A stretch of 40,756 nt of DNA from a bacterium. Its GTDB lineage: Bacteria > Patescibacteriota > Minisyncoccia > Minisyncoccales > JAUYFS01. Below the pieces are notes generated by a model. That model was not told the DNA's origin and searched no databases. It worked only from the letters and a program-made list of their open reading frames with translations. Both the position numbers and the translations under genes were made by a program. The DNA lies in assembly GCA_030689665.1 (NCBI GenBank), contig JAUYFS010000002.1, positions 1-40,756 of the forward strand. Reading direction: 5' to 3'. Of the stretch, positions 7,382-40,330 are shown in pieces. Each line of letters begins with the position of its first letter. The stretch's first letter is position 1.

Positions 7382-7389
7382 AGTTTTTT

Positions 7390-7504
7390 ACCCTCCCAAG
7401 TTTTTGACTTGGTTAAAAATGAATTATTGAAATATTAATTGTTGTTTGATTGTTTGAATTAGTTTTGTTAGTCATAATCGCCTTAGTCAAAAATTTGGGA
7501 GGGT
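7390..7504 (-). promoter_or_regulatory. Long-range hairpin in the rpoB-rpoC spacer; its 3' arm contains the rpoC Shine-Dalgarno sequence
   Basis: On the minus-strand RNA, ACCCTCCCAAATTTTTGAC (7504..7486) pairs with GTCAAAAACTTGGGAGGGT (7408..7390) at 18 of 19 positions around a loop of about 77 nt. The 3' arm is followed by AAAAAACT and then the rpoC ATG. Confidence 0.5.
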
Positions 7505-7513
7505 AAATTTAAT

Positions 7514-10500
7514 TTATTCTTCCGTTTCTTCGCTTTCTTTCCTCTCTATTTGAACGCTAAATCCCATTGCCTTTAATTCATTGACTAACAAATTAAATGA
7601 TGCTGGTATCCCAGGGCCTTTGATTGGTTCCCCTTTTAAAATAGCTTCATAAACAGCCGACCTTCCAGGAACATCGTCTGATTTATAGGTAAGCATTTCC
7701 TGTAAAATATGCGCCGCTCCGTGCCCTTCCAAAGCCCAGACCTCCATTTCTCCAAATCTCTGTCCTCCGAATTGCGTTTTTCCGCCCAATGGCTGCTGGG
7801 TTATTAAAGAATAGGGACCGATAGACCTTGCGTGAATTTTATCTTCAACCATATGAATCAGCTTCATAATATACATATAGCCAACCGTGATTCTTTCTGA
7901 AAATGGCTCGCCGGTCCTTCCATCATAAAGAGTAACCTTGCCGTCTTCGGGAAGACCCGCTTCTTTCAATTCTTTTTTAATATCTGCTTCGTTGGCTCCC
8001 AAAAGAGAAGGGGATATTGCGATATAATTTAATTTTTTTGCGGCATAGCCAAGATGAGTTTCCAGAATTTGGCCCAAGTTCATTCTTGAGGCAACGCTAA
8101 TGGGATTTAAAATTATATCAACCGGCGTGCCGTCTTCCAAAAATGGCATTTCTTCATCAGGTAAAATTTTTGAAATAACGCCCTTGTTCCCGTGCCTGCC
8201 AGCTAATTTATCTCCGGCCTTAATTTTTCTTATTTGGGCGATTTCTATTTTTATTCTTTTTAAAGTTCCCGGCTCTAATTTATGGCCTGTTTCTTTTGAA
8301 AAAACTTTTATCCCAATTACTCTTCCTTTTTTCCCGTGAGGCAAAAGTAGGGAGGTATCTTTTATTTCTCTGGCTTTTTCTCCAAATATTGCCCTGAGAA
8401 GACGCTCTTCCGGAGTCAAATCAGTTTCTCCCTTTGGAGCGATTTTGCCAACTAGAATATCATTGGGTTTAACTTCCGCTCCAATTCTTATAATTCCTTC
8501 TTCATCCAGGTCTTTTAAGCGTTCCTCTCCAATGTTTGGAATATCAGGAGTGGTTATTTCAGGGCCTAATTTTGTTTCCCTTACATCGCAGGTAAAATCT
8601 TCAATGTGAATTGAAGTAAATTTGTCATTTTTTACCAAGCTTTCAGAAAGAACAATGGCATCTTCAAAATTATTTCCCCTCCAAGACATAAAAGCAACTA
8701 ACAAATTGTGCCCCAAAGCCAAACGACCATCAACAACAGCAGCGCCATTGGTTAAAATGTCGCCTTTTTTAATTTTCTGCCCCTTTTGAACTCTGGGCGT
8801 TTGACGCAAACAAGTATATTGGTTTGTTCTGATAAAATTATCCAATTTATGTTCTTCAATATTACCTCCTCCCTTTATTTTTATTCTTGAGGAATCAATT
8901 TCAACCACATTTCCGTCAATTCCGGAAATTGCGACTAATCCCGAATCACGCGCCACGTTTCTCTCAACGCCAGTTCCGACTAACGGAACATCGGGATTAA
9001 TCAAAGGAACTGCCTGCCTCTGCATATTTGAACCCATCAAGGCCCTGTTGGCGTCGTCGTTTTGGAGAAAAGGAATTAAAGAAGTTGCAATGGAAATAGC
9101 CAGTTTTGAAGAAACGTCTGCATAATCAACCTTTTCTTTTTCAATTTCTCTTGGCTCTCCCTTTACTCTCGCCTCAACTCTTTCTGGAATTATTCTCATT
9201 TTGTCGTCCAAGGGAACGCCGGCATGAACAATAATGTATTTTTCTTCCTCGTAAGCGCTTAAATAATGAATCTCCTGCAATACCTTTCCTTTTTCAACTT
9301 TAAAATATGGGGTCTCCAAAAATCCCATTTCGTTAATTTTGGCAAATGTTGCCAAGTGGCCAACCAAACCAACGTTTCCTCCTTCCGGAGTTTGTATCGG
9401 ACAAATTCTTCCGTAGTGGGACGGCTGAACGTCACGAACCTCAAAGCCAGCCCTTTCTCTGGTTAAACCTCCCGGACCGGTTGAAGTAAGAGTTCTTTTG
9501 TGCTCAACTTCTGCCAAAGGATTTTCACTATCCATAAATTGCGCCAACTGAGATGAAGTGAAAAATTCTTTTACAACCATTCCAAAAGTTCTCGGATTTA
9601 TTAATAAAGACGTGGTTATTCCTTGGGGGTCAACCGTAGACATTCTGTCTTTTATAATTCTTTCCATTCTCATCAAGCCAATCCTCAAGCGATTTTCTAA
9701 AAGGTCTGAAATTGTCTTTACCCTTCTGTTGCCCAAATGGTCAATTTCGTCTGGTTGGGAATACGGGGTGTTGTTAAGTTTGATTATTTCCCTGATTGAC
9801 CTTACGATGTCTTCTTTTCCCAAAATCCTTTCTTCGGGGCTTATTTTCACCTTTTTACCCTTTCCCACTTCTTTTTCCGGATAAAGACGCAGCCAAATTT
9901 TCCAACGCCCGACTCTTGAAAGGTCATATCTGCTGAAATTAAAAAATAAATTTTCTATGAATTCTCTGGCTGTTTCCGGAGTAACCAATTCTCCCGGCCT
10001 TAATTTATGATAAATTCCGACCAATGCTTCCAATTCGTTTTGTTCCGGGTCTTTTTCCAGAGTTTTCTCAATAAATTTAATTTCTTTGTTCGTATCAACA
10101 TCTTTGAATAAGTTTTTTATTTCCTCATTTTTAAAACCAAAAGCTTTTAAAAGAGTGGTTGCCGTCACCTTTCTTTTTCTGTCTATTTTTACCCAAATAA
10201 CACCCGCGGAATCAGTGTCAAATTCCAACCAAGCGCCCCTATTGGGAATTATTCTGACTCCGAAAAAGTTTTTGTTTCCGTATTTTTCGGCAACAAAAAA
10301 ACAACCCGGAGACCTAACGAGTTGAGAAACAATCACTCTCTCAACGCCGTTAATAATAAAGGTTGCTTTTTCAGTCATCAAAGGAAAATCGCACAGAAAA
10401 ACTTCCTGTTCTTTTGATTTTCCGGTTTTTAAATCAGTTAATTTTGTTTTTACTTTTAAAGGCGCTTCGTAAGAATCATCGTTGCTTTTTGCTTCAATTT

Positions 10501-10910: not shown

Positions 10911-13900
10911 CTAGATGCAGACAGCCGAGGCAATCTGGTCTCCCGCCTTAAATTTCATAACTCTCACACCCCTCGCCATTCTTCCTAAAATTGAAATTGA
11001 TTTCAGTTCTGTTTTTATGACTTGCCCCTTTTTGGAAATAATAACCAAATCTTCTTCATTTTCTAAAATTTTGGCAAAAACTATTTCCCCTGTTTTTTCG
11101 TTAACCTTTAATGTGATAACGCCGGAACCGCCGCGCGACTGAATTCTGTAATTGCTTAATTTAACTTTTTTCCCAGACCCATTGCTTGTCAAAATCAAAA
11201 GATTTTCTTTTTGAATTTTTTCCTTGACAATATCCTGAATCGCCACCACCTCGTCATTGGGCGCCAATTTTATTCCTCGAACCCCGGAAGAAACCCTTCC
11301 CATAGTCCTGATTTCTTTTTCTTTAAACCTTATTGACTTGCCTTTTTTGGTAATTATTATCAATTCATCTCCCTTTTCAACCCTTACAACCTGCTTTAAT
11401 AAATCGTCCTTAAGCAATTTTATCGCTTTGATTCCGGTTCTCCTTACATTTTCAAAATCAATTTGCGCCGTTTTTTTGACAATGCCCTTTTTGGTCACCA
11501 TTGCCAAAAAACTGTCTGTTTCGCTTCCTTTTTTAACAGGAATCAAAGAAAGGACTTTTTCTTCAGGGCTAATCTCCAAAAAATTCATCAAACCCCTGCC
11601 CTTTGAAATTCTGCTGCCCTCAGGAATTTCATAGATATTTGTTTTAAACGCTTTTCCCGAATCCGTGAAAACCAACAAACTGTCTCTGGCTGAAGCCAAA
11701 GCAAAATGTTCCACCATGTCTTCTTCGCTGGTTTTCAAGCCAATCATACCCTTTCCGCCTCTTTTTTGAACTTTGTAGGTAGAAGGATTTATTCTTTTTA
11801 TGTAGCCGTCTTTGGTAAGAATAATAATCGTTTCTTCGTCAGGAATTAATTCCTCATCGCTTATTTCCCCGGCTTTTTGGCTTACAACTTTTGTTCTTCT
11901 CGGGCCGCCGTATTTTTCTTTTATTTCAAAAAGTTCGTCTTTCACCACTTTGTATATTTTTTTCTCGTTCTTCAAAATCTCCGTCCATTCTTTTATTTGT
12001 TTTAATTTCAATTCCAGCTCTTCCTTTATTTTTTCCCTTTCCAAGCGCGCCAAGCTCTGAAGTTTCATTTCCAAAATCGCATTGGATTGAATTTCGGTCA
12101 GTTTAAATTGTTTCATTAAATTAATCTTGGCATCGTCCCTGCTTTTTGACGCTTTTATGGTTTTGATAATCGCGTCTATTTTATTTAAGGCCTTGTCCAA
12201 ACCCTCTAAAATATGAACTCTTTCTTTGGCTTTGTTTAATTCATATTGAATTCTTCTGGTTATAACTTCCTTCCTGTGAGAAATAAAAAATGAAAGCGCT
12301 TCTTTTAAAGACAAAACCCTCGGCTGGATTCCATCAACCAAAGCCAGCAAATTAAGGTGAAAATTTTTCTGAAGGTCAGTGTATTTGTAAAAACTGTTTA
12401 AAATTCTTTGGGGCAATGCCTCTGGTTTCAATTCAATCATTATTCTCATTCCGTCTTTATCTGATTCGTCTCTTATGTCTTTTATTCCTTGCAGTTTTTT
12501 GTTTTCAACCAATTTTGCCATTTGCTCCAACAAACCGCTTTTTTCCACTTGAAAAGGAATTTCGGAAATTATAATTTGCTGGCGTCCTGTTTTCGTTTCT
12601 TCTACTTCCGCCTTTCCTCTCATTAATATCGGACCCTTGCCCTGAGAAAACGCTTTGATGATTTCTTTTTTATCAAAAATAAACCCGCCTGTCGGAAAAT
12701 CAGGACCTTGAACGAATTTAAATAAATCTTCGGTAGTGGCTTCCGGATTATCAATTAGAAAAGAAGTGGCGTCAACCAATTCGCTCAAATTATGGGGCGG
12801 AATATTGGTCGCCATTCCAACGGCAATTCCAGTAGCGCCGTTCAAAAGAAGCCCGGGAACAGCGGCAGGCAAAACAATCGGCTCTTTTCTTGTAGCGTCA
12901 TAATTGTCCCTAAAATCAACTGTTTCTTTCGCTATGTCTTTTAAAAGTTCTTCGCCAACCTTGGAAAGTTTTGCTTCGGTATAACGCTGCGCTGCCGGAG
13001 GGTCTCCGTCAATTGAATTATGCGCGAAAATACCAGCGCTTAAAGCAAAATTATGAGTGCCTTCTATTGTTAAATCATAAACATCTGCCGATTCCCCTAA
13101 AAATTCTTTTCTTGAAACTTTGTGGTTTCCATTAATGCTGCACAATAAATAATTAATGTCATTATTATAATATTTTTTAATTCCTAGGTCCCAACCGGTA
13201 AAACTCTTTATTTTAAAAATTGCCTTCCTGATATTTTCATAATTTTCTTTATCCAAAGACAAATTATTATCCTTTAAATAGTGGCATATCTTTTCAAACT
13301 TCTTTCTGCCCGTTAAATTTGTCTCTCTTTTCTTATTTGAATTAACTATCTTTTCGTGAAAAAACTGTTTATATTCAGGAATCCCCCAAAGCCTTTTTAG
13401 GGTAGCCGACGCTCGCTTGCTTATTTCTTTTATCTTTTCTGGATGTAATTCCAAATATCTTTTTGTGCTTTCCCTCAACATCTCAACCATTTTCTCCCTG
13501 TATTCCTGCTTTTCCCAATTTTTACGGTTCCTTAACGACAATCTTTCGGCATAGGATTTCCTATTTTTTAAATCCTCCCAAAACAGTTTTCTTCCCAATG
13601 CAAGCTTTTCTCTATATTCTTTGTCTGTCTTGTGTTTTTCGGATATAAAATTGTAATGGGTTTGCCAATGTTCTTTCCAATCCATTCTAGCTATATTTTC
13701 TGGATTATTGTTTAGTTTATTAAAATCCAGATGATGCCTTATCCTGCCCTTTTTTCTTTCATAAACTTTGTTTAATATATTATATTCATCTGATAAAATG
13801 TGGATAAAATCCCAAAGATTTGAAGACTGTTGAAAAACCATGGTATAACCATTCATATTGGGATCATCTTCCCTGGTTGAACTTCTAAAATAGCAGGGCA

Positions 13901-14555
13901 TTAACGAATCTCCTTTTTCCAGATTTTTTGCCTCTCTGTATTCCCCGTTCTTTAACATGAATTTATGATCCAGCGTACATTTAATTTCCTCACCATTGTC
14001 CAAAACTATTTTCATTATTTCCGCATACTTTGTTTTCCTTGGATATTTTATTTCCGCAATTTTAATTTTTCCGTCGCTATCAACAGTAAAAGTATAATTT
14101 TTCTTGCCTTGTTTATGTTCTTCTATCAGCTCTAAAAAAGACGCGTCTCTTCCGTCGGTTAGTTTAACCTTAGTTTCACCCGTAAAACAACCAAAATTTC
14201 CTTGGCCAATAATCAAAGGATATCTCATTGAAAAATCCTGCGCCATTCTAACCAATGCTTCATAAACAGACGCGTCCCCGTGAGGATGATACTTTCCCAA
14301 AACATCACCGGTAACAGCCGCTGATTTTCTGAATTTAGCGGACGAAGCCAAGCCCATATCGTGCATCGCGAAAAGAATTCTTCTGTGAACCGGTTTTAGC
14401 CCGTCTCTGACATCAGGCAAGGCGCGGGAAACGATAACGCTCATCGCGTAATCCAAGTAAGAATCTTTCATCTCTTTCACGATTTCAACTTGCTGGATTT
14501 GAGAATCTATATTTTGTTTGATATTTTTTATATCCTCTTCTTTTTCTTTTGGCAT
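10911..14555 (-). CDS. gyrA: DNA gyrase subunit A, interrupted by an in-frame intein (exteins about 823 aa)
   Basis: 1214 aa. N-extein reads ...GKYHPHGDASVYEALVRMAQDFSMRYPLIIGQGNFG. C-extein reads SIDGDPPAAQRYTEAKL... with the catalytic Tyr in QRYTE. C-terminal beta-pinwheel repeats are present. Confidence 0.95.
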   Translation of the reverse strand: MPKEKEEDIKNIKQNIDSQIQQVEIVKEMKDSYLDYAMSVIVSRALPDVRDGLKPVHRRILFAMHDMGLASSAKFRKSAAVTGDVLGKYHPHGDASVYEALVRMAQDFSMRYPLIIGQGNFGCFTGETKVKLTDGRDASFLELIEEHKQGKKNYTFTVDSDGKIKIAEIKYPRKTKYAEIMKIVLDNGEEIKCTLDHKFMLKNGEYREAKNLEKGDSLMPCYFRSSTREDDPNMNGYTMVFQQSSNLWDFIHILSDEYNILNKVYERKKGRIRHHLDFNKLNNNPENIARMDWKEHWQTHYNFISEKHKTDKEYREKLALGRKLFWEDLKNRKSYAERLSLRNRKNWEKQEYREKMVEMLRESTKRYLELHPEKIKEISKRASATLKRLWGIPEYKQFFHEKIVNSNKKRETNLTGRKKFEKICHYLKDNNLSLDKENYENIRKAIFKIKSFTGWDLGIKKYYNNDINYLLCSINGNHKVSRKEFLGESADVYDLTIEGTHNFALSAGIFAHNSIDGDPPAAQRYTEAKLSKVGEELLKDIAKETVDFRDNYDATRKEPIVLPAAVPGLLLNGATGIAVGMATNIPPHNLSELVDATSFLIDNPEATTEDLFKFVQGPDFPTGGFIFDKKEIIKAFSQGKGPILMRGKAEVEETKTGRQQIIISEIPFQVEKSGLLEQMAKLVENKKLQGIKDIRDESDKDGMRIMIELKPEALPQRILNSFYKYTDLQKNFHLNLLALVDGIQPRVLSLKEALSFFISHRKEVITRRIQYELNKAKERVHILEGLDKALNKIDAIIKTIKASKSRDDAKINLMKQFKLTEIQSNAILEMKLQSLARLEREKIKEELELKLKQIKEWTEILKNEKKIYKVVKDELFEIKEKYGGPRRTKVVSQKAGEISDEELIPDEETIIILTKDGYIKRINPSTYKVQKRGGKGMIGLKTSEEDMVEHFALASARDSLLVFTDSGKAFKTNIYEIPEGSRISKGRGLMNFLEISPEEKVLSLIPVKKGSETDSFLAMVTKKGIVKKTAQIDFENVRRTGIKAIKLLKDDLLKQVVRVEKGDELIIITKKGKSIRFKEKEIRTMGRVSSGVRGIKLAPNDEVVAIQDIVKEKIQKENLLILTSNGSGKKVKLSNYRIQSRGGSGVITLKVNEKTGEIVFAKILENEEDLVIISKKGQVIKTELKSISILGRMARGVRVMKFKAGDQIASAVCI
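13017..14189 (-). mobile_element. GyrA intein (391 aa) with an HNH-type homing endonuclease insert
   Basis: Starts with Cys (CFTGETKVKL, TGT at 14189..14187). Block B is CTLDHKF. C-terminal blocks are VYDLTIEGTHNFALSAGIFAHN, with the Asn codon at 13019..13017 followed by Ser+1. The central HNH signature is IRHHLDFNKLNNNPENIARMDWKEHWQTH. No LAGLIDADG motifs were seen. Confidence 0.87.
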
Positions 14556-23994: not shown

Positions 23995-24022
23995 TTGACA
24001 ACATACAACCGGTTGCTATAAT
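23995..24022 (+). promoter_or_regulatory. Consensus sigma70-type promoter on the plus strand
   Basis: TTGACA (23995..24000), a 16-nt spacer, then TATAAT (24017..24022). Both hexamers are perfect. Confidence 0.5.
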
Positions 24023-24028
24023 TAAAAT

Positions 24029-24088
24029 AGAATACACATTGAAAAACACCTCTTAGGGTTCCGTTCTTAAGCGGTGTTTTTCTTTTTA
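24029..24088 (+). ncRNA. Candidate ~60-nt transcript (consensus promoter followed directly by a terminator)
   Basis: Hairpin AAAAACACCTCTTA-GGGTTCCGTTCT-TAAGCGGTGTTTTT pairs at 13 of 14 positions and is followed by TCTTTTT. It contains no ATG-initiated ORF. The hairpin also overlaps the stop of the minus-strand NYN remnant and could equally serve as that gene's terminator. Confidence 0.35.
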
Positions 24089-24285
24089 TACTCTAGTTTA
24101 TTCCTAAGATTATTCATAAACACAATTTTTTCTTTAGCAACTTTTCTTAACAAAGATGAACAAGTGTCAACATAGGGGCTCATTACAATTTTTAATCTGT
24201 TTTTTTCATACAAAAATTTAACTAGAGAATAAAAATCGCCATCGCTCGTTATAATAACCGCTTTTGTTAAAAATAACCGCTTTTG
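24067..24285 (-). pseudogene. Remnant of a second NYN/LabA-like gene (C-terminal half only, no start codon)
   Basis: Minus-frame translation gives ...TKAVIITSDGDFYSLVKFLYEKNRLKIVMSPYVDTCSSLLRKVAKEKIVFMNNLRNKLEYKKKNTA*. The (S/T)xDGDF segment plus downstream pattern is typical of NYN/LabA C-terminal halves. The frame opens straight after a TAG with no Met. A 19-bp tandem duplication (24254..24272 and 24273..24291) lies at the break. Confidence 0.5.
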
Positions 24286-24307
24286 CTAAAAAAACGCGAC
24301 CCGCCAC

Positions 24308-24643
24308 TTAATCTTTAATTTTGTCATGCTTCTTTTCATTTTGTTTCTCCTTGTGCTTCTTCAAAAGCGCCTGAAGTTCATCTTTTACCGTATTAATTGC
24401 TTTGTAAATATTCTCTTCTCGCGCTTCGGATCGAATAATTTCCCTTGGAACTTTAATGTTTGCTTCCGCATAATAAATTTTTCCTTTTTGGTGATGGCGG
24501 TTTTCAATCGCCACTTCAACAAAAGCCTCCACCGGAGTACCAATGTGAAGGATGAATTTATCTAGAGTACCAATTTTTTCCTCAATTGCCTTTTTTATTT
24601 CCGGAGTCAAATTTAAATTTGTCGCTTTGATAGTGATTTTCAT
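24308..24643 (-). CDS. hpf: Ribosome hibernation-promoting factor / RaiA family (short form)
   Basis: 111 aa. MKITIKATNLNLTPEIKKAIEEKIGTLDKF...AEANIKVP is the typical S30AE/HPF fold sequence. Confidence 0.88.
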   Translation of the reverse strand: MKITIKATNLNLTPEIKKAIEEKIGTLDKFILHIGTPVEAFVEVAIENRHHQKGKIYYAEANIKVPREIIRSEAREENIYKAINTVKDELQALLKKHKEKQNEKKHDKIKD

Positions 24644-24722
24644 TTTTTAAATTTTTTATTAATTTTTTCTTCAACTTCGCCTCGCCCGTGGTCGGGCTAC
24701 GGCCAAGGGGCCTAATTTTTGA

Positions 24723-25175
24723 TTATTTTTTATATTTCTCAAATTTTTCTATTACCTTGCCTATGTCTCTTTTAATACCCTGCCAATCCCATCCTTTTTT
24801 ATTATCTTTTTCAATTTTTATTCTCCAACGGCTCAGATGAGCCAATTGTTTATCCGCTTTATTTTTTGCCTCCTTAAGTAATTCGGTTATAGGTGGTCTT
24901 TCATTTTTCCAATTTATAGTATCTGGTAAAAAATCTTGTGCCACTAAATCATTCAGGTATTTTTCATCTTTATCATTATAAAAAAATTCTATTAATATTC
25001 TATTATGAGTCGCTAGTGATTCTAATAATAAATTCTTTTCAAATCGTGTTTTTTGACACAAGTCGAGTTGTTTACAAGTTTCTTGGAACATACTAATTTC
25101 GTATCTTAAAAGTTCTTCCAACTCTTTTTGGTTTGCATCTATTAATTCGTTATGATTCCAGTAATTATCTTCCAT
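24723..25175 (-). CDS. Hypothetical protein (150 aa)
   Basis: ATG start, probably helical. I assign no family. Segments ATHNRILIEFF and KQLAHLSRWR are noted, but I cannot place them in a known motif. Confidence 0.55.
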   Translation of the reverse strand: MEDNYWNHNELIDANQKELEELLRYEISMFQETCKQLDLCQKTRFEKNLLLESLATHNRILIEFFYNDKDEKYLNDLVAQDFLPDTINWKNERPPITELLKEAKNKADKQLAHLSRWRIKIEKDNKKGWDWQGIKRDIGKVIEKFEKYKK

Positions 25176-25266
25176 AATTTTAATTCCGAAAGAATCAAGG
25201 TTTCCGCCCGGAGCGGAGTTCTTATTTTTTACCCCGTACCGTGTTTTGCTCTGGTGCGGGGCTCAA

Positions 25267-25560
25267 TTAATTCCTTTGCCCGGTAGTAGAGCCGCCGAAG
25301 GCGGCTCTACTACCGGGGTTCGACTTTTTCTTTGGTTGAGATTCTAATATCTTTTCCATGGGACAAAATCCCTTTAAACTTTTGTGGGAAAAATAATTCC
25401 AGGTATCGTTAGCAATTTCAAGTATCCGATTTAATTCTTCAATGCCTTGTCCTCTATCAAAAATTGAAACAACCCTCATTAAATCGTCACTATCCTTTTC
25501 ATGGTAAATAATATCTTTTATGTGTTCTATCGTGAAAGGACTATTGATTTCTTTCAACAT
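25267..25560 (-). CDS. Hypothetical small protein (97 aa as tracked); its C-terminal tail is encoded by a GC-rich palindrome
   Basis: ATG start 27 nt downstream of the TPR gene stop. The last 17 residues (PGSRAAFGGSTTGQRN) are translated from the palindrome at 25279..25317. Confidence 0.5.
   Translation of the reverse strand: MLKEINSPFTIEHIKDIIYHEKDSDDLMRVVSIFDRGQGIEELNRILEIANDTWNYFSHKSLKGFCPMEKILESQPKKKSNPGSRAAFGGSTTGQRN
25279..25317. repeat. Perfect 18-bp-stem GC-rich palindrome
   Basis: cccggtagtagagccgcc-gaa-ggcggctctactaccggg. It is a GC-rich island in AT-rich surroundings. Confidence 0.85.
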
Positions 25561-25587
25561 TTTTGAAAGTTCTTTTGCTATTTCATT

Positions 25588-26307
25588 TCATTTTTTCAAG
25601 ATTTCTTTTATTCTTAATGAAGTATTTTTGTTTTTAGCATCAATAATTTTTCTTTCATCTTCATCGCTTATAATCGATGCCAAGAGTCCATTTAAGCGCG
25701 CTTCTTCTTTTATCTCTTCTGCTTCATCTCGCATCAGAGGTTTTTTAAAAGAATAATTCTCCAAAATAGAAATTCTAAACGCTTGCTGTGTTTTAGGATT
25801 TAACTTTTCTTTCTTCATCTTTTGCAACTCGCTGGCAGAGTATTTTAAATATTCTTTTTTCGTTCCTTTCGCTACCTTAAGGTTGTATAAAACAAAAGTA
25901 TCCTTTGGCGCTAAAGCCCTGCCGCGCTCCAGCCATTCCATTCCTTCCTTAAAATCAAAATAATGAAAATAGCTCATGGCTAAATCTATATATGCCAAGG
26001 GATTCATTAAGTCTAAACTTATCGCCTCTCTTAAGTCATTTCTCCCTTCCCCTAATTGGCCTAACATCACTTTAACCCAGCCTAAACTTCTTAAATTTTC
26101 TGCGTGACGAGGCAACAACTGATTAGCTTTCTCAAGCGCCTTTTTTGCTAAAAAAAATCTTCCGCATTTCATTCTGGCAATACCTAAAAGATAGTGTAAA
26201 TAAGGATCTTCAAGCGCTTCCTTTAAAACATCTTTTATGATACTAACCGCTAAGGATGATTTTCCTTTCTGTATCAAATCATTTGCCTTTTTAATTTTTT
26301 CGTCCAT
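25588..26307 (-). CDS. TPR-repeat protein (239 aa)
   Basis: The N-terminal two thirds show tandem 34-aa TPR-like repeats (LHYLLGIARMKCGRFFLAKKALEKANQLLP, ENLRSLGWVKVMLGQLGEGRNDLREAISLD, LAYIDLAMSYFHYFDFKEGMEWLERGRALAP). The charged C-terminal tail is unassigned. Confidence 0.75.
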   Translation of the reverse strand: MDEKIKKANDLIQKGKSSLAVSIIKDVLKEALEDPYLHYLLGIARMKCGRFFLAKKALEKANQLLPRHAENLRSLGWVKVMLGQLGEGRNDLREAISLDLMNPLAYIDLAMSYFHYFDFKEGMEWLERGRALAPKDTFVLYNLKVAKGTKKEYLKYSASELQKMKKEKLNPKTQQAFRISILENYSFKKPLMRDEAEEIKEEARLNGLLASIISDEDERKIIDAKNKNTSLRIKEILKK

Positions 26308-26359
26308 ATTTTTTTAATTATGACATGCGTTTCAGTTACCTGGCTTAGTATGTGTTGGC

Positions 26360-26506
26360 TGCGGGACTAGGCCACCTTCGCCAAGGCTACGGCGAGCCAA
26401 GGGATTCGAAGGTGTTGCCCTTGTCCGCCTCCATTTTTACAAATTTCGGCGGGATAAAGCGTATTTTGCTTCGCAAAATACGGGGGCTAGGTTCTCGCCA
26501 CAGTCC
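26360..26506. repeat. Direct repeat copy A (147 bp), downstream of the NYN gene and upstream of the TPR gene
   Basis: Identical to 27367..27514 except for two substitutions and a 1-nt indel, all within gttgcccttgtcc versus gttactctttgtcc. GC-rich, with several internal helices. Confidence 0.92.
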
Positions 26507-26620
26507 GCTAATAATTGAAATCGCAATACCCCTCGCGGGTATTAAGATTTCAATGTTGAAAATCTTAAACAATATTAGAACAGCAATCCAGCAACAAAAT
26601 GAACATATATTGAGCGCTAA

Positions 26621-27175
26621 TTAAAAGATTAACCTTTCAAAGAAAGATTGCCTCGCCCTTCTTGGAATATCTGCTAATCTTAAAAGAGAATTAGATATGA
26701 ATCCCCTAAAATACACGATCTCTATTTTTTTACCAAATATGTTCTTGGTTGGATCTAGGGCGCTAACATAGTCTCTATCATTAGAAACAAGAATTGCGGT
26801 ATCAAAGGTATTCTGGGCAGCTAAAGAAATCATATTTGCTGTAAGTTGTGTATCTAGGTTTTTTTCCTTAAGTTCTCTCCCAGCTCCTTGTAAATTACCA
26901 AATTTTACCTCAACTCCAGATAATTTTTGTATCTCGGCGTAGTATTGTGTTTGAATTGAGTATTTCTTTTTACTATCTGCGGTTTTTAACATCTGGGATG
27001 GCGGCGGAGTACAGTAGAAAAAAACAGCCACTAAGTTTCTATCACCAGTTAATTTTTGAGCAAGTTTTAATGGATTATAAAGACAAATCCATTTTTTATC
27101 GATCTTTTTCAGTTCACTTAAATATTTATAAACATTGGAATTATCTATAAATACTGCAACTCGTGTTGAATTCAT
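26621..27175 (-). CDS. NYN-domain (LabA/DUF88-like) putative ribonuclease
   Basis: Starts MNSTRVAVFIDNSNVYKYL (N-terminal Asp motif). Contains ...EKNLDTQL...DTAILVSNDRDYV, matching the NYN acidic-residue pattern. I place the start at the ATG at 27175; the tracked extension to 27229 reads through a terminator hairpin. Confidence 0.8.
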   Translation of the reverse strand: MNSTRVAVFIDNSNVYKYLSELKKIDKKWICLYNPLKLAQKLTGDRNLVAVFFYCTPPPSQMLKTADSKKKYSIQTQYYAEIQKLSGVEVKFGNLQGAGRELKEKNLDTQLTANMISLAAQNTFDTAILVSNDRDYVSALDPTKNIFGKKIEIVYFRGFISNSLLRLADIPRRARQSFFERLIF

Positions 27176-27199
27176 ATTTTCATTATACTTGTATAAGCA

Positions 27200-27270
27200 T
27201 AAAAAACAAATGGCGGCTGTCGCCGCCATTCGTTAGCTTGTCATAACCGAAGCTATAACAAGGATTTAAT
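27200..27270 (-). ncRNA. Leader or small RNA: UUCG-capped hairpin plus intrinsic terminator, immediately upstream of the NYN gene
   Basis: Minus strand has CTTGTTATAGC-TTCG-GTTATGACAAG (27262..27237). Its two G-U pairs are valid only on the minus strand. This is followed by CTAACGA, then ATGGCGGC-GACA-GCCGCCAT (27229..27210) and TTGTTTTTT. Confidence 0.45.
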
Positions 27271-27276
27271 ATATTT

Positions 27277-27305
27277 ATATTATTCCCATCGAGAAAGGTT
27301 GTCAA
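27277..27305 (-). promoter_or_regulatory. Sigma70-type promoter within a cluster of four TTGACA hexamers
   Basis: Minus strand has TTGACA (27305..27300), a 17-nt spacer, then TAATAT (27282..27277). Further TTGACA copies lie at 27317..27312, 27350..27345 and 27360..27355. Confidence 0.5.
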
Positions 27306-27366
27306 GAGCATTGTCAACTCTTGTCGGTTATTTCGTTTATTCTTTGTCAAATCCTGTCAACTTTGT

Positions 27367-27514
27367 TGCGGGACTAGGCCACCTTCGCCAAGGCTACGGC
27401 GAGCCAAGGGATTCGAAGGTGTTACTCTTTGTCCGCCTCCATTTTTACAAATTTCGGCGGGATAAAGCGTATTTTGCTTCGCAAAATACGGGGGCTAGGT
27501 TCTCGCCACAGTCC
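27367..27514. repeat. Direct repeat copy B (148 bp), between tRNA-Gln and the NYN promoter region
   Basis: See copy A. Its promoter-proximal end (CCTAGTCCCGCA on the minus strand) matches 11 of the last 12 nt of the adjacent tRNA-Gln (CCTAGTCCGGCA). Confidence 0.92.
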
Positions 27515-27561
27515 AGCAAGGACCAAATTTTAATATCGCAAGATATTAAAATTTGTTCTTG

Positions 27562-27632
27562 CTGCCGGACTAGGATTCGAACCTAGATTAACAGGGCCAG
27601 AACCTGTCGTCCTACCGTTAGACGATCCGGCA
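27562..27632 (-). tRNA. tRNA-Gln (anticodon CTG)
   Basis: Minus strand reads TGCCGGA TC GTCT AACGGTA GGAC G ACAGG TTCTGGC CCTGT TAAT CTAGG TTCGAAT CCTAG TCCGGCA G. It has the U1-A72 pair and G73 typical of bacterial tRNA-Gln. No encoded CCA. Confidence 0.9.
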
Positions 27633-27635
27633 ATG

Positions 27636-28550
27636 CTATATTTTTAGATATCTTCTTATTGCGATAAGGGTTGAGATTACTCCAAGGCCAACGCCAACCA
27701 GTAAATTTATGAGGAAAATAATTGGCCATTTTGAAGCGAAAAAACCAAACAAACTGAATCCTCCCAAAATATCAGCAATTTTTGAATCTATCAAAAAGAT
27801 AGCTATTGCGAAAAAAATAAATGTCGCAAAAGCTGAAATTAATCCAACTAAAACTCCCTGAATCAAAAACGGGCCGCGAATAAACCAGTCAGACGCGCCA
27901 ACCAATCTCATAACATTAACCTCTTCCCTGGCATTATAAATTATTAAGCGCAAAGTGTTAAAAGCAACCAAAATCGCCAAAATTGAAGTCAAAATAATTA
28001 ATCCATTCATCAAATTATTCACATTTTTTGTCGTGCTGAACAAATTTTCAATCACCTTCCTGTTTTCCTGATAATCAACTTTTTCAATGTATTCTTTGTA
28101 GCTGCTGCTTTCTATGAAACTGGTTATTTTGCTGTAATCGCTTGAATTATACGCTTTTATGTTCAAAGACGCTGAAAACGGGTTGCCGCCGATTTCGTCA
28201 AGCGACTGCATCAAGGTATCGTCATTTTTGTGTTTTTCTTTAAATTCTTCCAAAGTATCGCTCGGCGAAATATATTCAATCGCTTTTACTTCCGGCATTT
28301 TTTTCAAGTCATCTTTTAGCGCTGAAATGGCATTGTCTTCCGCATCCAAATTAAAATAAACCGAGATGTCAATTTTTTCGTTTATTCTGTCCACAAAAAA
28401 ATCAACCAGCCCCTTAAACAAAAAACTCCCGGTAATCAAGCTTAAACTCAAACACAAAACAATAATCGTTGCCGTGATGCCAATTGTGTTTCTTTTAAAA
28501 AATGTCAGTCCTGATTTTAAGGCTCTTTCAAAAAGAATAAATTTGTTCAT
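27636..28550 (-). CDS. ftsX: Cell division permease-like protein FtsX
   Basis: 304 aa. One TM, a periplasmic domain, then three C-terminal TM helices. Its start overlaps the ftsE stop (ATGA). Confidence 0.88.
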   Translation of the reverse strand: MNKFILFERALKSGLTFFKRNTIGITATIIVLCLSLSLITGSFLFKGLVDFFVDRINEKIDISVYFNLDAEDNAISALKDDLKKMPEVKAIEYISPSDTLEEFKEKHKNDDTLMQSLDEIGGNPFSASLNIKAYNSSDYSKITSFIESSSYKEYIEKVDYQENRKVIENLFSTTKNVNNLMNGLIILTSILAILVAFNTLRLIIYNAREEVNVMRLVGASDWFIRGPFLIQGVLVGLISAFATFIFFAIAIFLIDSKIADILGGFSLFGFFASKWPIIFLINLLVGVGLGVISTLIAIRRYLKI

Positions 28551-29233
28551 AACATAAATCTCCCTTTTTCCTCGTCGCGGATAATTTTTCCTTTTTCCAG
28601 GGTTATCACCCGCTTGCCGAGGATATTAATTAAATCTTTGTCGTGGGTTGCCAATAAAATTGTCGTTCCCAGTTCGTTTATTTTCAGCAAAAGTTTTATG
28701 ATGTCTCTGGCGTGATAAGGGTCCAAATTTCCTGTCGGCTCGTCTGCCAAAATAAGCTCCGGCCTGTGAACTAAAGCCCTTGCTATGGCGATTCGCTGTT
28801 TTTCTCCAGCGGAAAGTTCGTCCGGGAAACTATCGCCCCTTTCTCTTAATCCGACAACTTCCAAAACTTGCGGCACTTCTTTTTTTATTCGGTCTTCAGG
28901 GGTTCCGATAACTTCCAGCGCGTAAGCGATGTTTTCATAAACAGTCATTGATTTTAAAAGTTTGTAATCCTGAAAAACCATTCCAACCTCGCGTCTTAAA
29001 AACGGCAAATCCTCAAAATCAAGCTTTGAAACCTCTATGTCTTTAAAATAAATTTTGCCGTGAGTCGGCTTTTCTTCACCTAATAATAAACGAAAAATCG
29101 TTGTTTTTCCAGAGCCCGAACGGCCTATCAAAGAAACAAATTCTCCCTGCGTAATTTCAAAATCAACTTCCTCAAGGGCAAAACCCTTTTTGGGATAATT
29201 TTTGCTGATTTTTTTAAACTTTATCAAAGCCAT
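28547..29233 (-). CDS. ftsE: Cell division ATP-binding protein FtsE
   Basis: 228 aa. Walker A GRSGSGKTT, signature LSAGEKQR, Walker B LILADEPTGNLD. Confidence 0.92.
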   Translation of the reverse strand: MALIKFKKISKNYPKKGFALEEVDFEITQGEFVSLIGRSGSGKTTIFRLLLGEEKPTHGKIYFKDIEVSKLDFEDLPFLRREVGMVFQDYKLLKSMTVYENIAYALEVIGTPEDRIKKEVPQVLEVVGLRERGDSFPDELSAGEKQRIAIARALVHRPELILADEPTGNLDPYHARDIIKLLLKINELGTTILLATHDKDLINILGKRVITLEKGKIIRDEEKGRFML

Positions 29234-38788: not shown

Positions 38789-40330
38789 TTAAATAATCGG
38801 CCTGTCTAAAAAATCTTTTAAGGTTTCTTTTAATTTTTCAATTCTTGATTCCTTTTCTTTGTCTTCAATTCTTTCAACCCCCTTAAATCTTTCTTTCGGC
38901 GCTTCTTTGATTTCTTCGCTCTGCTGTCTTTTCATGCAAGATTTGCAATAAACGGGCAACCCGGGTTTGGGAAGAAACGGCACTTTTATTTTTTTGCCGC
39001 AAAGAACGCAGGTCGTATCGTAAAGATTAAAAGCAAGCGGCGCTTCCCCTCTGGTAACAATATCAGAAGCCCATCTTATTATTTTTTCTTCCACCTTTAA
39101 TCTGTTGGTGGCATATCTTTCTCTGCATGATTTTATTATTTTTTCTCTGTGTGAAGCTTCCGGAGCTTCAAAAAGCGGCAAAGAAGTGATTGAAAAGGGC
39201 CTGGTTGTGATTCCATTAACCATTACTTTCGCGCACATCTGGTATTTTGACAAATTAACCATATCAAGAACGGTAAATTCCGGGCTGAATTCTTTTTCTA
39301 AAAATTCCGCGTCTTCGGCGCCAACCCTAAAAATAACAAGACTGCCAACATTGCCAAAAACAGCGTCTTTCACTGACAATTCCATCTGGGTAATATATTG
39401 GTGGGCTAAAATTAAATTCAGCCGGTATTTTCTGGCTTCTGATAAAATATTGACAAAAGATTCCGTGGCAAAATTCTGAAATTCATCAACATATAAAAAG
39501 AAATCTTTTCTTTCTTCTTCTTTGACATTAACTCTGGACATCGCGGAAAATTGAAGTTTGGTGATTAAAAGAGCTCCCAGCAAACGGGACGCGTCTTCTC
39601 CGATTTTTCCTTTTGACAAATTGATTATCAAAATTTTTCCGTTGTCCATAACATCTCTCATGTCAAAAGAGGTCTTTACTTGACCGACAATGTTTCTGAT
39701 TAACGGAGAAGCTATAAACTGGCCAATTTTGTTTTGTATGGCCGCGGTTGCTTCCATTTCATATCTCTGCGTGTATCTGGCAAATTCTTTTTCCCAAAAC
39801 GCCCTGATAATCGGGTCTTTTAGTTTTTCGGTAACATCTTTTCTGAAATCCGGGTCTGAAAGCATTCTGTGAATTCCCAAAAGCGTTGAACCCTTGTATT
39901 CCAAAAGCGCCAAAATCGCATTGTTTAAAATATATTCCATTCTGGCTGACCAGACATCGGGCCAGATTTTTTTAAAAACACTCATCAGTCCGCTGGCAAC
40001 CAAATGCCGGTCTTCAACAGCGACATCTTCCATAATATTAAAAGCAATCGGGTATTCTATGTCAGCCGGATTTATGTAAATAACATCGTTTATTCTTTTA
40101 GCCGGAATATAGTCCAAAAGTTCTTCGCACGCTTCCCCGTGCGGGTCTAAAAAAGCCAAACCATGTCCGTTGCGAATATCTTGGATAGCCAGATTTTTTA
40201 TCAGCGTAGTTTTCCCGACTCCGGTTTTACCCATAACATAAAAATGCCTTCGGCGGTCATCCAATTTAATTCCGATTTTTTTCTGAACATCCCTGAAATT
40301 TGTTTTTCCAAAAAAAGTGATTTCTTCCAT
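38789..40330 (-). CDS. TraD/VirD4-like (type IV coupling protein-like) P-loop ATPase, no TM segment, with a C-terminal CxxC...CxxC zinc ribbon
   Basis: 513 aa. Walker A GKTGVGKTT, Walker B FFLYVDEFQNF, and ILAHQY. The zinc ribbon is CVLCGKKIKVPFLPKPGLPVYCKSC, followed by a charged tail. Confidence 0.78.
   Translation of the reverse strand: MEEITFFGKTNFRDVQKKIGIKLDDRRRHFYVMGKTGVGKTTLIKNLAIQDIRNGHGLAFLDPHGEACEELLDYIPAKRINDVIYINPADIEYPIAFNIMEDVAVEDRHLVASGLMSVFKKIWPDVWSARMEYILNNAILALLEYKGSTLLGIHRMLSDPDFRKDVTEKLKDPIIRAFWEKEFARYTQRYEMEATAAIQNKIGQFIASPLIRNIVGQVKTSFDMRDVMDNGKILIINLSKGKIGEDASRLLGALLITKLQFSAMSRVNVKEEERKDFFLYVDEFQNFATESFVNILSEARKYRLNLILAHQYITQMELSVKDAVFGNVGSLVIFRVGAEDAEFLEKEFSPEFTVLDMVNLSKYQMCAKVMVNGITTRPFSITSLPLFEAPEASHREKIIKSCRERYATNRLKVEEKIIRWASDIVTRGEAPLAFNLYDTTCVLCGKKIKVPFLPKPGLPVYCKSCMKRQQSEEIKEAPKERFKGVERIEDKEKESRIEKLKETLKDFLDRPII

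What the first reader, a model, noticed from the sequence alone, without database searches (positions are those of the whole stretch)
26360..27514. 147-bp GC-rich direct repeats bracketing an NYN nuclease gene next to tRNA-Gln
Two copies (26360..26506 and 27367..27514, 1007 bp apart) differ by only two substitutions and one indel, all confined to a predicted single-stranded linker. Each copy folds into several helices: CACCTTCG...CGAAGGTG enclosing GGCT-ACGGCG-AGCC; CCGCC...GGCGG; and a 9-10 bp stem CGTATTTTG-CTTCG-CAAAATACG. On the minus strand each copy is preceded by an AT-rich hairpin and lies in the 5' region of a gene: copy B before the NYN gene, copy A before the TPR gene. The end nearest the downstream gene (CCTAGTCCCGCA) matches 11 of the 12 terminal nt of the adjacent tRNA-Gln, and a GATTCGAA T-loop-like octamer follows a 31-nt hairpin-family insert. 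The repeat may therefore be tRNA-derived. Possible explanations are att-like duplications from a tRNA-Gln-targeted insertion of the NYN cassette, a paralogous cis-regulatory or structured RNA, or a small non-autonomous mobile element.
Basis: partly seen in the sequence, partly recalled or inferred. Interest (0 to 1): 0.65.

Follow-up and report, generated by a model that had tools for sequence, protein, structure and literature searches.

The report
Duplicated pseudo-tRNA flanking an inserted nuclease gene
The two 147-base repeats are copies of a decayed, hairpin-stuffed relic of the neighbouring tRNA-Gln gene, and they bracket a small, horizontally travelling NYN-nuclease gene in the way attachment-site repeats bracket an inserted genomic island; this is real, but it is a variant of a well-known pattern.

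Summary
There are two direct copies, A at 26360-26506 and B at 27367-27514. They differ by 2 substitutions and 1 indel, have 53-55% GC in a 36% GC genome, and sit at exactly twice the flanking depth in the source run.

I call the unit E. It matches no Rfam family and is not called as a tRNA. It is nevertheless collinear with tRNA-Gln: the 5' acceptor strand, UUCGAAUCC, and the 3' acceptor strand plus trailer all line up. It also resembles hairpin-interrupted tRNA-Gln pseudogenes at the same locus in relatives.

A relative with 88% identical FtsX has one E after tRNA-Gln and an identical 46-nt spacer hairpin. It has no NYN gene, and different genes follow E. This is the empty-site-like state.

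Between the two lineages E is only 67% identical, which is about the neutral level. Its ends are conserved and its middle is replaced.

The NYN gene is part of a compact cassette: promoter, conserved two-hairpin leader, and a 184-aa NYN RNase that matches the PADLOC candidate HEC-09. The cassette occurs at 75-93% protein identity in distant CPR lineages. There it lacks E, usually lies directly 3' of a tRNA, and is sometimes bracketed by short repeats. No integrase lies in the 40-kb window.

Best reading: att-like duplication of a pseudo-tRNA by insertion of an integrase-less (CIME-like) cassette. Interest is moderate to low.

The parts
27561..27632 (-). tRNA-Gln(CUG). It is the functional gene and starts 3 nt after the ftsX stop codon.
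   Evidence: ARAGORN and Rfam tRNA, 60.3 bits. 95.8% identical to the L002 copy.
27515..27560 (-). Spacer with a long AT-rich hairpin (AAAUUUUAAUAUC-UUGC-GAUAUUAAAAUUU, extended by CAAGAAC/GGUCCUUG) between tRNA-Gln and copy B.
   Evidence: Sequence. 46/46 identical in relative L002, while ftsX DNA is 84.5% identical and 4-fold sites 63%. Function unknown.
27367..27514 (-). E copy B. This is the resident copy of the tRNA-Gln-derived pseudo-tRNA, at the same position as the single copy in relatives. With 3 more upstream bases, its 5' UGCUGGA pairs with its 3' UCCCGCA as an acceptor-like stem.
27306..27366 (-). Left end of the NYN cassette: an array of (A/G)TTGACA(A/G) repeats that starts directly after E's ...GUCCCGCA|AC. 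The last TTGACA of the run is the promoter -35 box of the next part. The array is shared with cassettes L013 and L015.
   Evidence: Alignment A2 and flank listing; 33-nt tandem repeat in L013/L015.
27277..27305 (-). NYN cassette promoter, TTGACA-17-TAATAT.
   Evidence: 10 of 12 matches; conserved in all cassettes.
27201..27267 (-). Conserved leader: hairpin P1 (27237-27262), UAACGAAU, and a terminator-like stem (27210-27229) with a U run (27201-27209).
   Evidence: 5 of 24 pairs are compensatory among 5 cassettes. The motif is present upstream of NYN in all 17 NYN loci fetched and once in the window. Terminator scan.
26621..27175 (-). NYN-domain (LabA/DUF88-like) RNase gene, 184 aa.
   Evidence: Pfam PF01936, 4.3e-16. 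PADLOC HEC-09, 2.3e-13. Homologues are 184 aa long.
26569..26620 (-). 3' tail of the cassette, homologous to L013/L015 as far as ...GTTCTAATATTGT.
26507..26568 (-). W-specific spacer with nested hairpins (UUGAAAUC...AAUACCC-GCGA-GGGGUAUU...GAUUUCAA) upstream of copy A.
   Evidence: Its similarity to the spacer of copy B is not significant (607 of 2000 shuffles).
26360..26506 (-). E copy A, the duplicate on the far side of the cassette. It lacks the first 3 nt of the acceptor-like 5' strand.
24240..26359 (-). Rest of the lineage-specific segment behind E: TPR gene 25588-26307, orf97 25267-25560, GC-rich hairpins, orf150 24723-25175, and HPF 24308-24643. Homology with relative L002 resumes in a non-coding block at about 24000-24210, so the 24240 border is approximate.

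Best explanation
E is not a gene of a known RNA family. It is a remodelled pseudogene copy of the adjacent tRNA-Gln. It keeps an acceptor-like stem, the UUCGAAUCC T-loop sequence, and the 3' acceptor strand plus trailer. Its interior has been filled with GC-rich hairpins.

In this narrow Parcubacteria lineage, one E sits just after tRNA-Gln and a spacer hairpin. The DNA immediately 3' of E is a variable, island-like segment.

In the window genome, a cassette of about 0.8 kb has been inserted at the 3' end of E. The cassette carries a promoter, a structured leader and an NYN RNase, and it is horizontally mobile. Recombination between the resident E and an E copy carried by the incoming DNA would leave one E on each side. 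This could be Campbell-type recombination, either site-specific through an integrase acting in trans or homologous. The two E copies are then attL/attR-like repeats 1007 bp apart.

The insert has no recombinase of its own, so it now resembles a cis-mobilizable, decayed element.

Shown: the repeat, its copy number, its tRNA-Gln ancestry, the single-copy NYN-less relative, and the mobility and tRNA-adjacent placement of NYN cassettes.

Inferred: the recombination mechanism, the direction of the event, and the idea that E acts only as DNA.
For: (1) Copy number and position. There are exactly two copies per genome by depth: 20.5 against 10.4-11.5 for the flanks. E was found only at the tRNA-Gln locus.

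(2) tRNA-Gln ancestry.
- L002's E aligns collinearly with its own tRNA-Gln; only 2 of 2000 shuffles score as well.
- Copy B against tRNA-Gln: 46 of 2000 shuffles.
- Copy B against the interrupted tRNA-Gln pseudogene of L007: 0 of 1000 shuffles.
- That L007 pseudogene is a W-type tRNA-Gln with three hairpin insertions (score 85, 0 of 1000 shuffles).

(3) Empty-site-like relative. L002/L003/L004/L021 (FtsX 88% identical) have tRNA-Gln, an identical 46-nt spacer and one E. They have no NYN and carry unrelated genes after E: an ABC-ATPase fragment and Phd/ParE. Homology with the window resumes only at a conserved non-coding block.

(4) Weak constraint on E. E is 67% identical between the lineages. 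Four-fold sites are 63%, ftsX DNA 84.5%, tRNA 95.8%. The middle of E is only 49% identical. L002's E folds no better than shuffles, z -1.2.

(5) Mobility of NYN. NYN proteins are 75-93% identical in lineages named Nealsonbacteria and Uhrbacteria, whereas FtsX falls to 48% or less outside the closest relatives. Gene contexts differ in every lineage.

(6) tRNA-adjacent placement of cassettes.
- They lie directly 3' of tRNA-Arg(UCU) in L017-19 and of tRNA-Lys(CUU) in L022/23.
- L022 has a decayed copy of the tRNA-Lys 3' end just after NYN (24 of 3000 shuffles).
- L013 has a 29-nt direct repeat on both sides of the cassette (0 of 3000 shuffles).

(7) Published parallel. Integrase-less islands flanked by repeats of a tRNA or tmRNA gene end are an established category: CIMEs (PMC5704250) and the Dehalococcoides ssrA islands (PMC3146451).
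Against: - No integrase or other recombinase lies in the insert or anywhere in the 40-kb window.
- The repeat is a whole 147-nt unit, much longer than usual att cores. The incoming DNA must therefore already have carried E, yet no NYN cassette elsewhere carries E.
- No circle junction or empty-site junction is seen in the X1 contigs. Contigs drop rare forms, so this is weak evidence.
- L017 and L015 show no significant flanking repeat, and L030 has no tRNA next to the cassette.
- The two copies are 98% identical, strongly folded and GC-rich. The 5' 24 nt and the 3' 58 nt of E are more conserved than neutral sites: 87.5% and 79% against 63%. Hairpin 1 keeps pairing through compensatory changes (read by eye). 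These points leave room for an RNA function.
Confidence: 0.55

Rival explanations
1. E is a functional, expressed tRNA-like RNA kept in two paralogous copies. It might be processed by RNase P, RNase Z or the CCA-adding enzyme. It might act in cis on the downstream genes NYN and TPR, or as a partner, decoy or substrate of the NYN RNase.
For: - The minus-strand fold is strong (z -4.3 to -4.5) and GC-rich in an AT-rich genome.
- The copies are 98% identical while their flanks are unrelated.
- The 5' and 3' ends of E are conserved above the neutral level, and the spacer is 46/46 identical.
- Hairpin 1 shows compensatory changes: UUUUGC-GAA-GCAAAA against UUUUCU-GAA-AGAAAA.
- An acceptor-like stem and a T-loop sequence are retained.
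Against: - No Rfam or tRNA model match, even at E up to 10. ARAGORN calls appear only at relaxed thresholds, on the opposite strand, and differ between the two copies.
- The homologue in L002 is not more stable than shuffles (z -1.2), and its central third is replaced.
- RNAalifold finds little covariation, and the 8-bp CACCUUCG/CGAAGGUG helix breaks in L002.
- None of the NYN cassettes fetched from other lineages carries E, and all have their own promoter.
- E is absent from GTDB representative genomes and nearly absent from JGI metagenomes under the patterns used.
- No RNA runs hold the locus.
Confidence: 0.14
2. E was already duplicated locally by tandem duplication or slippage, or the two copies are kept alike by gene conversion. 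The NYN cassette later landed between the two copies. On this reading the repeats are not a product of the insertion.
For: Partial internal duplications of E modules exist in relatives. L002 has CAACACCUUCGAGUCC and CAACACUUUCGAAUCC. Run X3 has tandem modules of about 40 nt. Cassettes elsewhere land at the 3' ends of tRNA-like sequences without creating long repeats.
Against: No genome with E-E and no NYN was found. The only NYN-less relative has a single E. A W-specific 62-nt spacer, not E sequence, separates the cassette tail from copy A.
Confidence: 0.15
3. E is a small non-autonomous mobile element (MITE-like or REP-like) that has transposed to two sites.
For: A 33-nt GC-rich hairpin module of E (27378-27410) occurs alone in unrelated AT-rich contexts, and in tandem, in lake and sediment runs. 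GC-rich hairpins are common in intergenic DNA of this genome.
Against: The whole E unit has exactly two copies by depth and no further copy in 40 kb. It is always at the tRNA-Gln locus in relatives. It has no terminal inverted repeats or target-site duplications. It was not found in viral contigs.
Confidence: 0.05
4. The duplication is an assembly artefact, such as a collapsed or mis-joined repeat.
For: The A-variant words are missing from Logan contigs of the source run.
Against: An independent contig set shows 2x depth on the repeat and 1x on both flanks and on NYN. One contig runs from the end of A through NYN into B.
Confidence: 0.03

Closest known systems
tRNA/tmRNA-gene-targeted genomic islands and their integrase-less derivatives (cis-mobilizable elements, CIMEs). 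Examples: Dehalococcoides ssrA islands (PMC3146451) and the streptococcal ICE/IME/CIME accretions reviewed in PMC5704250.
   Same: A variable segment starts at the 3' end of a tRNA-type gene. Direct repeats of that gene's sequence bracket the insert. Relatives carry other cargo, or none, at the same site. The insert has no integration genes. The cargo is defence-like or toxin-like.
   Different: The repeated target is a 147-nt pseudo-tRNA downstream of the functional tRNA, not the last 20-60 nt of the functional gene. The insert is only about 0.86 kb. No cognate integrase was identified anywhere, and no excision was shown.
tRNA pseudogenes and tRNA-gene remnants left by repeated integration at tRNA loci
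   Same: Collinear residual similarity to the neighbouring tRNA-Gln. Location next to the functional gene. Overall divergence close to neutral.
   Different: E is enlarged to twice tRNA length by GC-rich hairpins. Its ends are conserved above the neutral level. In relatives L006 and L007, a complete tRNA-Gln is nested inside such a pseudogene.
HEC-09, a single-gene NYN (MARF1-like) defence candidate in PADLOC (bioRxiv 10.1101/2024.01.29.577857)
   Same: The inserted gene matches the HEC-09 profile (E 2.3e-13) and is a stand-alone NYN RNase carried on mobile DNA.
   Different: The tested HEC-09 representative gave no protection against the phages tried. The CPR cassette has a conserved two-hairpin leader that is not described there. 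Defence function was not tested here.
Insertion sequences inside structural RNA genes of CPR bacteria (rRNA gene insertions, PMC11270868)
   Same: In both, structural-RNA genes of CPR bacteria are interrupted by inserted sequences.
   Different: Those are rRNA insertions, often intron-like or encoding homing endonucleases. Here short hairpins interrupt tRNA-Gln copies that appear to be non-functional.

Membership tests
tRNA (Rfam RF00005 / ARAGORN) | Cloverleaf recognised by the covariance model or by ARAGORN at default thresholds | tested here: not met
   Only tRNA-Gln 27561-27632 is called. No tRNA-clan hit falls on E even at E up to 10. Relaxed ARAGORN gives inconsistent intron-containing calls on the opposite strand.
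tRNA (Rfam RF00005 / ARAGORN) | 7-bp acceptor stem, T-loop UUCRANY, and a 7-nt anticodon loop in canonical spacing | tested here: inconclusive
   An acceptor-like stem exists: UGCUGGA/UCCCGCA with 6 of 7 pairs in copy B, and 7 of 7 with two G-U pairs in L002. UUCGAAUCC is present. The T stem is split by a 31-nt insert, and there is no canonical D arm or anticodon arm.
att repeats of a tRNA-targeted integrative element / CIME | Direct repeats derived from the target gene bracket the insert | tested here: met
   Two E copies bracket the NYN cassette. E derives from tRNA-Gln.
att repeats of a tRNA-targeted integrative element / CIME | Related genomes with an unoccupied or differently occupied site | tested here: met
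   L002/3/4/21 have a single E, no NYN, and other genes behind E.
att repeats of a tRNA-targeted integrative element / CIME | Integrase or recombinase that acts on the sites, encoded in cis or available in trans | tested here: not met
   No recombinase domain in the insert or in the 40-kb window. A trans-acting enzyme elsewhere in the genome cannot be checked.
att repeats of a tRNA-targeted integrative element / CIME | Excision products (circle junction, restored empty site) | tested here: inconclusive
   No joints appear in contigs of runs X1, X6 and X7. Contigs drop rare variants, and raw reads were not available.
Integron gene cassette / attC | attC with R''-L''/L'-R' inverted core sites (RYYYAAC/GTTRRRY), a promoterless ORF, and intI nearby | tested here: not met
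   No intI. The cassette has its own strong promoter. The ends of E read TGCGGGAC...CACAGTCC and do not fit the core sites.
MITE / REP-type dispersed repeat | Many dispersed copies, terminal inverted repeats, target-site duplication | tested here: not met
   Two copies by depth. None elsewhere in the window. Flanks are unrelated and show no TSD.
Any curated RNA family (Rfam 15) | Covariance-model match | tested here: not met
   No match on E at the gathering threshold or at E up to 10.
Type III toxin-antitoxin (considered for the leader + NYN pair) | Tandem antitoxin RNA repeats, then a terminator, then an endoRNase toxin of the ToxN/AbiQ type | tested here: not met
   A terminator-like hairpin before the RNase gene is present. 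The transcribed leader is a single hairpin, not a repeat array, and the nuclease is NYN. Only the layout resembles type III.

The most novel reading that the evidence does not exclude
E is an expressed tRNA mimic: a remodelled tRNA-Gln paralogue that keeps the acceptor and T-loop features read by tRNA-processing enzymes. It would be co-transcribed with tRNA-Gln and the perfectly conserved spacer hairpin. NYN cassettes would home to the 3' ends of tRNA-shaped genes because the NYN nuclease, or a partner, recognises that shape. E would then be both landing pad and RNA partner or decoy of a small self-mobilising RNase module in CPR bacteria.
Probability: 0.08. Interest if true: 0.7.

Novelty: new variant of a known kind. 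Interest (0 to 1): 0.33.

Why it matters
This gives a concrete, well-delimited example of how ultra-small CPR genomes pick up defence-like or toxin-like single genes. The landing pad is a decayed tRNA copy behind the real tRNA gene. The cargo is a cassette of about 0.8 kb with no recombinase, which recurs next to tRNAs in distant CPR lineages.

It also warns that GC-rich, strongly folding repeats in AT-rich genomes need not be functional RNAs.

Two by-products may be more interesting than the repeat itself. One is the conserved, covarying leader RNA in front of the NYN RNase. The other is a set of nested tRNA-Gln genes sitting inside interrupted tRNA-Gln pseudogenes in relatives.

Tried and rejected
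- Genome-contig scan with GGCGAGAA..TTCGAATCC..CTCGCC. The only hit was a chance match inside an Arthrobacter coding region, with no Rfam family there.
- Metagenome-contig scan with GTGGNGAGAACCTAG N{46,76} TTCGARTCC. It returned only the L002-type locus, twice.
- Viral-contig scans for the E module, the NYN leader and the NYN protein. All found nothing. Against the phage and plasmid collections, NYN gave no phage hit and one 27%-identical E. coli plasmid hit.
- tmRNA, SRP RNA, 6S RNA, Y RNA, riboswitch and ribozyme readings. There is no Rfam support, and relaxed ARAGORN tmRNA calls are spurious.
- Intron-containing tRNA on the + strand. ARAGORN at -ps80 calls Gln(ttg) for copy B and Arg(tcg) for copy A from near-identical sequences, so these calls are not credible.
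- Protein coding. The + strand ORFs 26352-26624 and 27299-27586 run through the repeats, but they change frame relative to each other at the indel.
- Extended homology upstream of the two copies (tRNA 3' end plus hairpin). Not significant: 607 of 2000 shuffles.
- Cassette 3' tails as tRNA-Gln remnants. Not significant.
- A third E or tRNA-Gln remnant at the far end of the island. None in the window. There is one marginal 29-nt match in L002 (12 of 1000 shuffles).
- A pseudoknot GGCGAG:CUCGCC. The pairing is kept only through wobble changes in L002, and it competes with an alternative helix GCUYGCC/GGYRGSC. With two lineages this stays unresolved.
- Integron attC reading. Rejected (see the membership test).
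Full report
OBSERVATION

The window comes from a low-GC (36.2%) CPR/Parcubacteria genome in a groundwater metagenome. All genes around the finding lie on the minus strand. In order they are: ftsE 28547-29233, ftsX 27636-28550, tRNA-Gln(CUG) 27561-27632, repeat copy B 27367-27514, an NYN-domain gene, repeat copy A 26360-26506, a TPR gene 25588-26307, two unknown ORFs, and HPF.

The two copies are 147 and 148 nt long. They differ by two substitutions and one indel, have 53-55% GC, and are the only copies in the 40 kb.

The duplication is real. In independent Logan contigs of the source run, both flanks and the NYN segment have depth 10.4-11.5 and the 148-nt repeat contig has 20.5. A 920-nt contig runs from the end of A through NYN into B. 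That depth also means exactly two copies per genome.

The minus strand is far more stable than shuffles (z about -4.4), and the plus strand is not (z -1.7).

WHAT THE UNIT (E) IS NOT

- It matches no Rfam family at the gathering threshold or at E up to 10.
- ARAGORN does not call it as a tRNA or tmRNA. Calls appear only at relaxed thresholds, on the opposite strand, and they differ between the two near-identical copies.
- The + strand ORFs that run through the copies change relative frame at the indel, so E is not coding.

WHAT E IS

Syntenic loci of relatives were fetched through FtsX homologues.

The closest relative with a long contig is L002, with L003, L004, L020 and L021 carrying the same arrangement (FtsX 88% identical). 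It has ftsX, tRNA-Gln, a 46-nt spacer hairpin identical to the window's, and one copy of E at L002 11034-11170. After that come unrelated genes: an ABC-ATPase fragment and Phd/ParE. There is no NYN gene and no second E.

More distant relatives (62% and 58% FtsX identity) have a plain tRNA-Gln followed by a terminator.

Intermediate relatives show where E comes from.
- In L007 (74%), a tRNA-Gln of the window's sequence type is interrupted by three hairpin insertions, in the D loop, the anticodon loop and the variable loop. The anticodon-loop insert contains a second, complete tRNA-Gln. With the inner gene removed, the outer sequence aligns to the window's tRNA-Gln with score 85 (0 of 1000 shuffles).
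- L006 (76%) shows a similar nested and tandem arrangement.

E is collinear with tRNA-Gln. The 5' UGCUGGA corresponds to UGCCGGA. UUCGAAUCC is shared. The 3' CCUAGUCCCGCA plus trailer corresponds to CCUAGUCCGGCA plus trailer. For L002's E, only 2 of 2000 shuffles score as well; for copy B, 46 of 2000. Copy B also aligns with the L007 interrupted pseudogene, including parts of its inserts (0 of 1000 shuffles).

I therefore read E as a remodelled tRNA-Gln pseudogene that is roughly doubled in length by GC-rich hairpins.

IS E UNDER SELECTION AS AN RNA?

The identities between the window and L002 are:

| Region | Identity |
|---|---|
| tRNA-Gln | 95.8% |
| Spacer hairpin | 100% (46/46) |
| ftsX DNA | 84.5% |
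| ftsE DNA | 85.9% |
| Four-fold degenerate sites of ftsE | 63% |
| Other intergenic regions | 44-83% |
| E, whole | 67% |
| E, 5' 24 nt | 87.5% |
| E, middle | 49% |
| E, 3' 58 nt | 79% |

- L002's E is not more stable than shuffles (z -1.2).
- RNAalifold on the three sequences gives a positive (unfavourable) covariation term, and the 8-bp CACCUUCG/CGAAGGUG helix breaks in L002.
- Hairpin 1 does keep pairing through double changes, but palindromic inserts are self-complementary by origin.
- The pattern scans found E in no GTDB representative genome, and in JGI metagenomes only in the L002 type.
- Logan contigs of lake and sediment runs hold further variants next to tRNA-Gln. They also hold a 33-nt hairpin module of E alone in other contexts.

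Overall E looks weakly constrained and lineage-specific. Its ends are conserved, which could reflect either a recombination target or residual RNA function.

THE INSERT

The NYN gene is 184 aa long (26621-27175) and matches Pfam NYN and the PADLOC candidate HEC-09. The tested HEC-09 representative gave no phage protection in the published screen.

Homologues are 75-93% identical in many CPR contigs, including ones named Nealsonbacteria and Uhrbacteria. FtsX falls to 48% or less outside the closest relatives, and the neighbouring genes differ in every lineage. The gene therefore moves horizontally.

What moves is a cassette (alignment A2). It consists of:
- in one subfamily, an array of TTGACA repeats;
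- a strong promoter, TTGACA-17-TAATAT;
- a conserved leader with a hairpin and a terminator-like hairpin, with 5 of 24 pairs compensatory among 5 cassettes, present upstream of NYN in all 17 NYN loci fetched and once in the window;
- the NYN gene;
- a tail of about 50 nt.

None of these other cassettes carries E. They do tend to lie directly 3' of tRNA genes: tRNA-Arg(UCU) in L017-19 and tRNA-Lys(CUU) in L022/23.
- In L022 a decayed copy of the tRNA-Lys 3' end follows the gene (24 of 3000 shuffles).
- In L013 a 29-nt direct repeat brackets the cassette (0 of 3000 shuffles).
- In L017 and L015 no significant repeat is seen.
- L030 has no tRNA next to the cassette.

In the window, conservation of the cassette begins exactly after E's ...GUCCCGCA|AC.

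No integrase or other recombinase is encoded in the insert or in the 40-kb window, which otherwise holds core genes such as rpoBC, gyrA, ftsZ and ftsK.

MECHANISM I COMMIT TO

The 3' end of E is the left border of a variable segment in both lineages. Homology resumes at a conserved non-coding block, at about 24000-24210 in the window and about 12118-12330 in L002.

The E-NYN-E arrangement is what a Campbell-type insertion of DNA carrying one E plus the cassette (1007 bp in all) into the resident E would give. This is the attL/attR-like signature of tRNA-targeted islands. The cassette now lacks integration genes, as described for cis-mobilizable elements and for some Dehalococcoides ssrA islands (PMC5704250; PMC3146451).

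- Shown: the repeat, its copy number, its tRNA-Gln ancestry, the single-copy NYN-less relative, cassette mobility and tRNA-adjacent placement.
- Inferred: the recombination event itself, whether it was site-specific or homologous, and the idea that E acts only as DNA.

I put about 0.55 on this combined reading.

RIVALS

- A functional tRNA-like RNA, about 0.14.
- Prior local duplication with later insertion of NYN, about 0.15.
- A MITE-like element, about 0.05.
- An assembly artefact, about 0.03.

COMPARISON AND NOVELTY

The pattern works like a tRNA-locus island with att repeats. It differs in three ways. The repeated unit is a complete 147-nt pseudo-tRNA behind the functional gene. The insert is tiny. 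No recombinase is identifiable. It is not a member of any RNA family, integron, or MITE class tested. I rate it a new variant of a known kind, of moderate to low interest.

The covarying NYN leader, the nested tRNA-Gln genes in relatives, and the perfectly conserved spacer hairpin are unexplained side observations worth separate study.

Noticed in passing
window 27185-27305 (-): Conserved leader in front of the NYN RNase. It has the promoter TTGACA-17-TAATAT, hairpin P1 (27237-27262), UAACGAAU, a terminator-like hairpin with a U run (27201-27229), and then TATAAT about 8 nt before the ATG. It occurs upstream of NYN in all 17 NYN loci fetched, with 5 of 24 pairs compensatory, and matches no Rfam family. 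It could be an attenuator or a small RNA, and the layout resembles type III toxin-antitoxin loci.
   Followed up: partly
L007 2700-2990; L006 2900-3290: In relatives, a complete tRNA-Gln gene flanked by 13-18 bp inverted repeats sits inside an interrupted tRNA-Gln pseudogene. In L007 it lies in the anticodon loop, and in L006 inside a D-loop hairpin insert. L006 also has three tandem 58-nt units that each carry the first 16 nt of the tRNA. This suggests repeated self-targeted insertion at this tRNA locus.
   Followed up: partly
window 27515-27560 (-): The 46-nt AT-rich spacer hairpin between tRNA-Gln and E is 100% identical to the one in L002, although ftsX DNA is 84.5% identical and 4-fold sites 63%. 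It has no U tail, so it is not a classical terminator. Its function is unknown. One lake variant has a different, shorter hairpin here.
   Followed up: partly
window about 24000-24210 (-); L002 about 12118-12330: A non-coding block of about 215 nt is about 90% identical between the window and L002. It contains a long hairpin (AAAAACACCGCUUAAG...CUAAGAGGUGUUUUU) and marks the right border of the variable segment in both genomes. No Rfam match above chance.
   Followed up: partly
window 27306-27366 (-); L013 2349-2414; L015 3285-3350: An array of (A/G)TTGACA(A/G) repeats sits at the left end of the NYN cassette in one subfamily. These could be operator sites, extra -35 boxes, or arm-type recombinase binding sites.
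   Followed up: no
window 27378-27410; Logan runs X2, X3, X4: The 33-nt GC-rich hairpin module inside E also occurs alone between unrelated AT-rich sequences, and as tandem copies, in lake and sediment metagenomes. Small hairpin modules may spread independently.
   Followed up: partly
L013 1429-1728 and 3455-3754: A 300-nt direct repeat (91% identical) made of a duplicated 99-aa ORF brackets orf95 plus the NYN cassette in another genome.
   Followed up: no
window 25190-25330 (-): A cluster of GC-rich hairpins lies downstream of orf97, including an 18-bp stem, CCCCGGUAGUAGAGCCGCC-UUCG-GGCGGCUCUACUACCGGG.
   Followed up: no
window 10911-14555 (-): The gyrA gene carries an intein (Pfam Intein_splicing, 5.8e-19).
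   Followed up: no
window 26397-26467: Words specific to the copy-A variant are absent from Logan contigs of the source run, where the copy-B variant has the double depth. The three differences between the copies may be strain-level or assembly-level variation.
   Followed up: partly
L009-L011 about 3790-7750; window 38789-40330: In the 58% FtsX relative, tRNA-Gln is followed by a sigma70_r4/HARE-HTH gene, a DUF8128 gene and a T4SS coupling-protein gene. This fits the tRNA-Gln flank being an insertion hot spot for conjugative-type DNA in this clade. A similar coupling-protein gene lies at the edge of the window.
   Followed up: no
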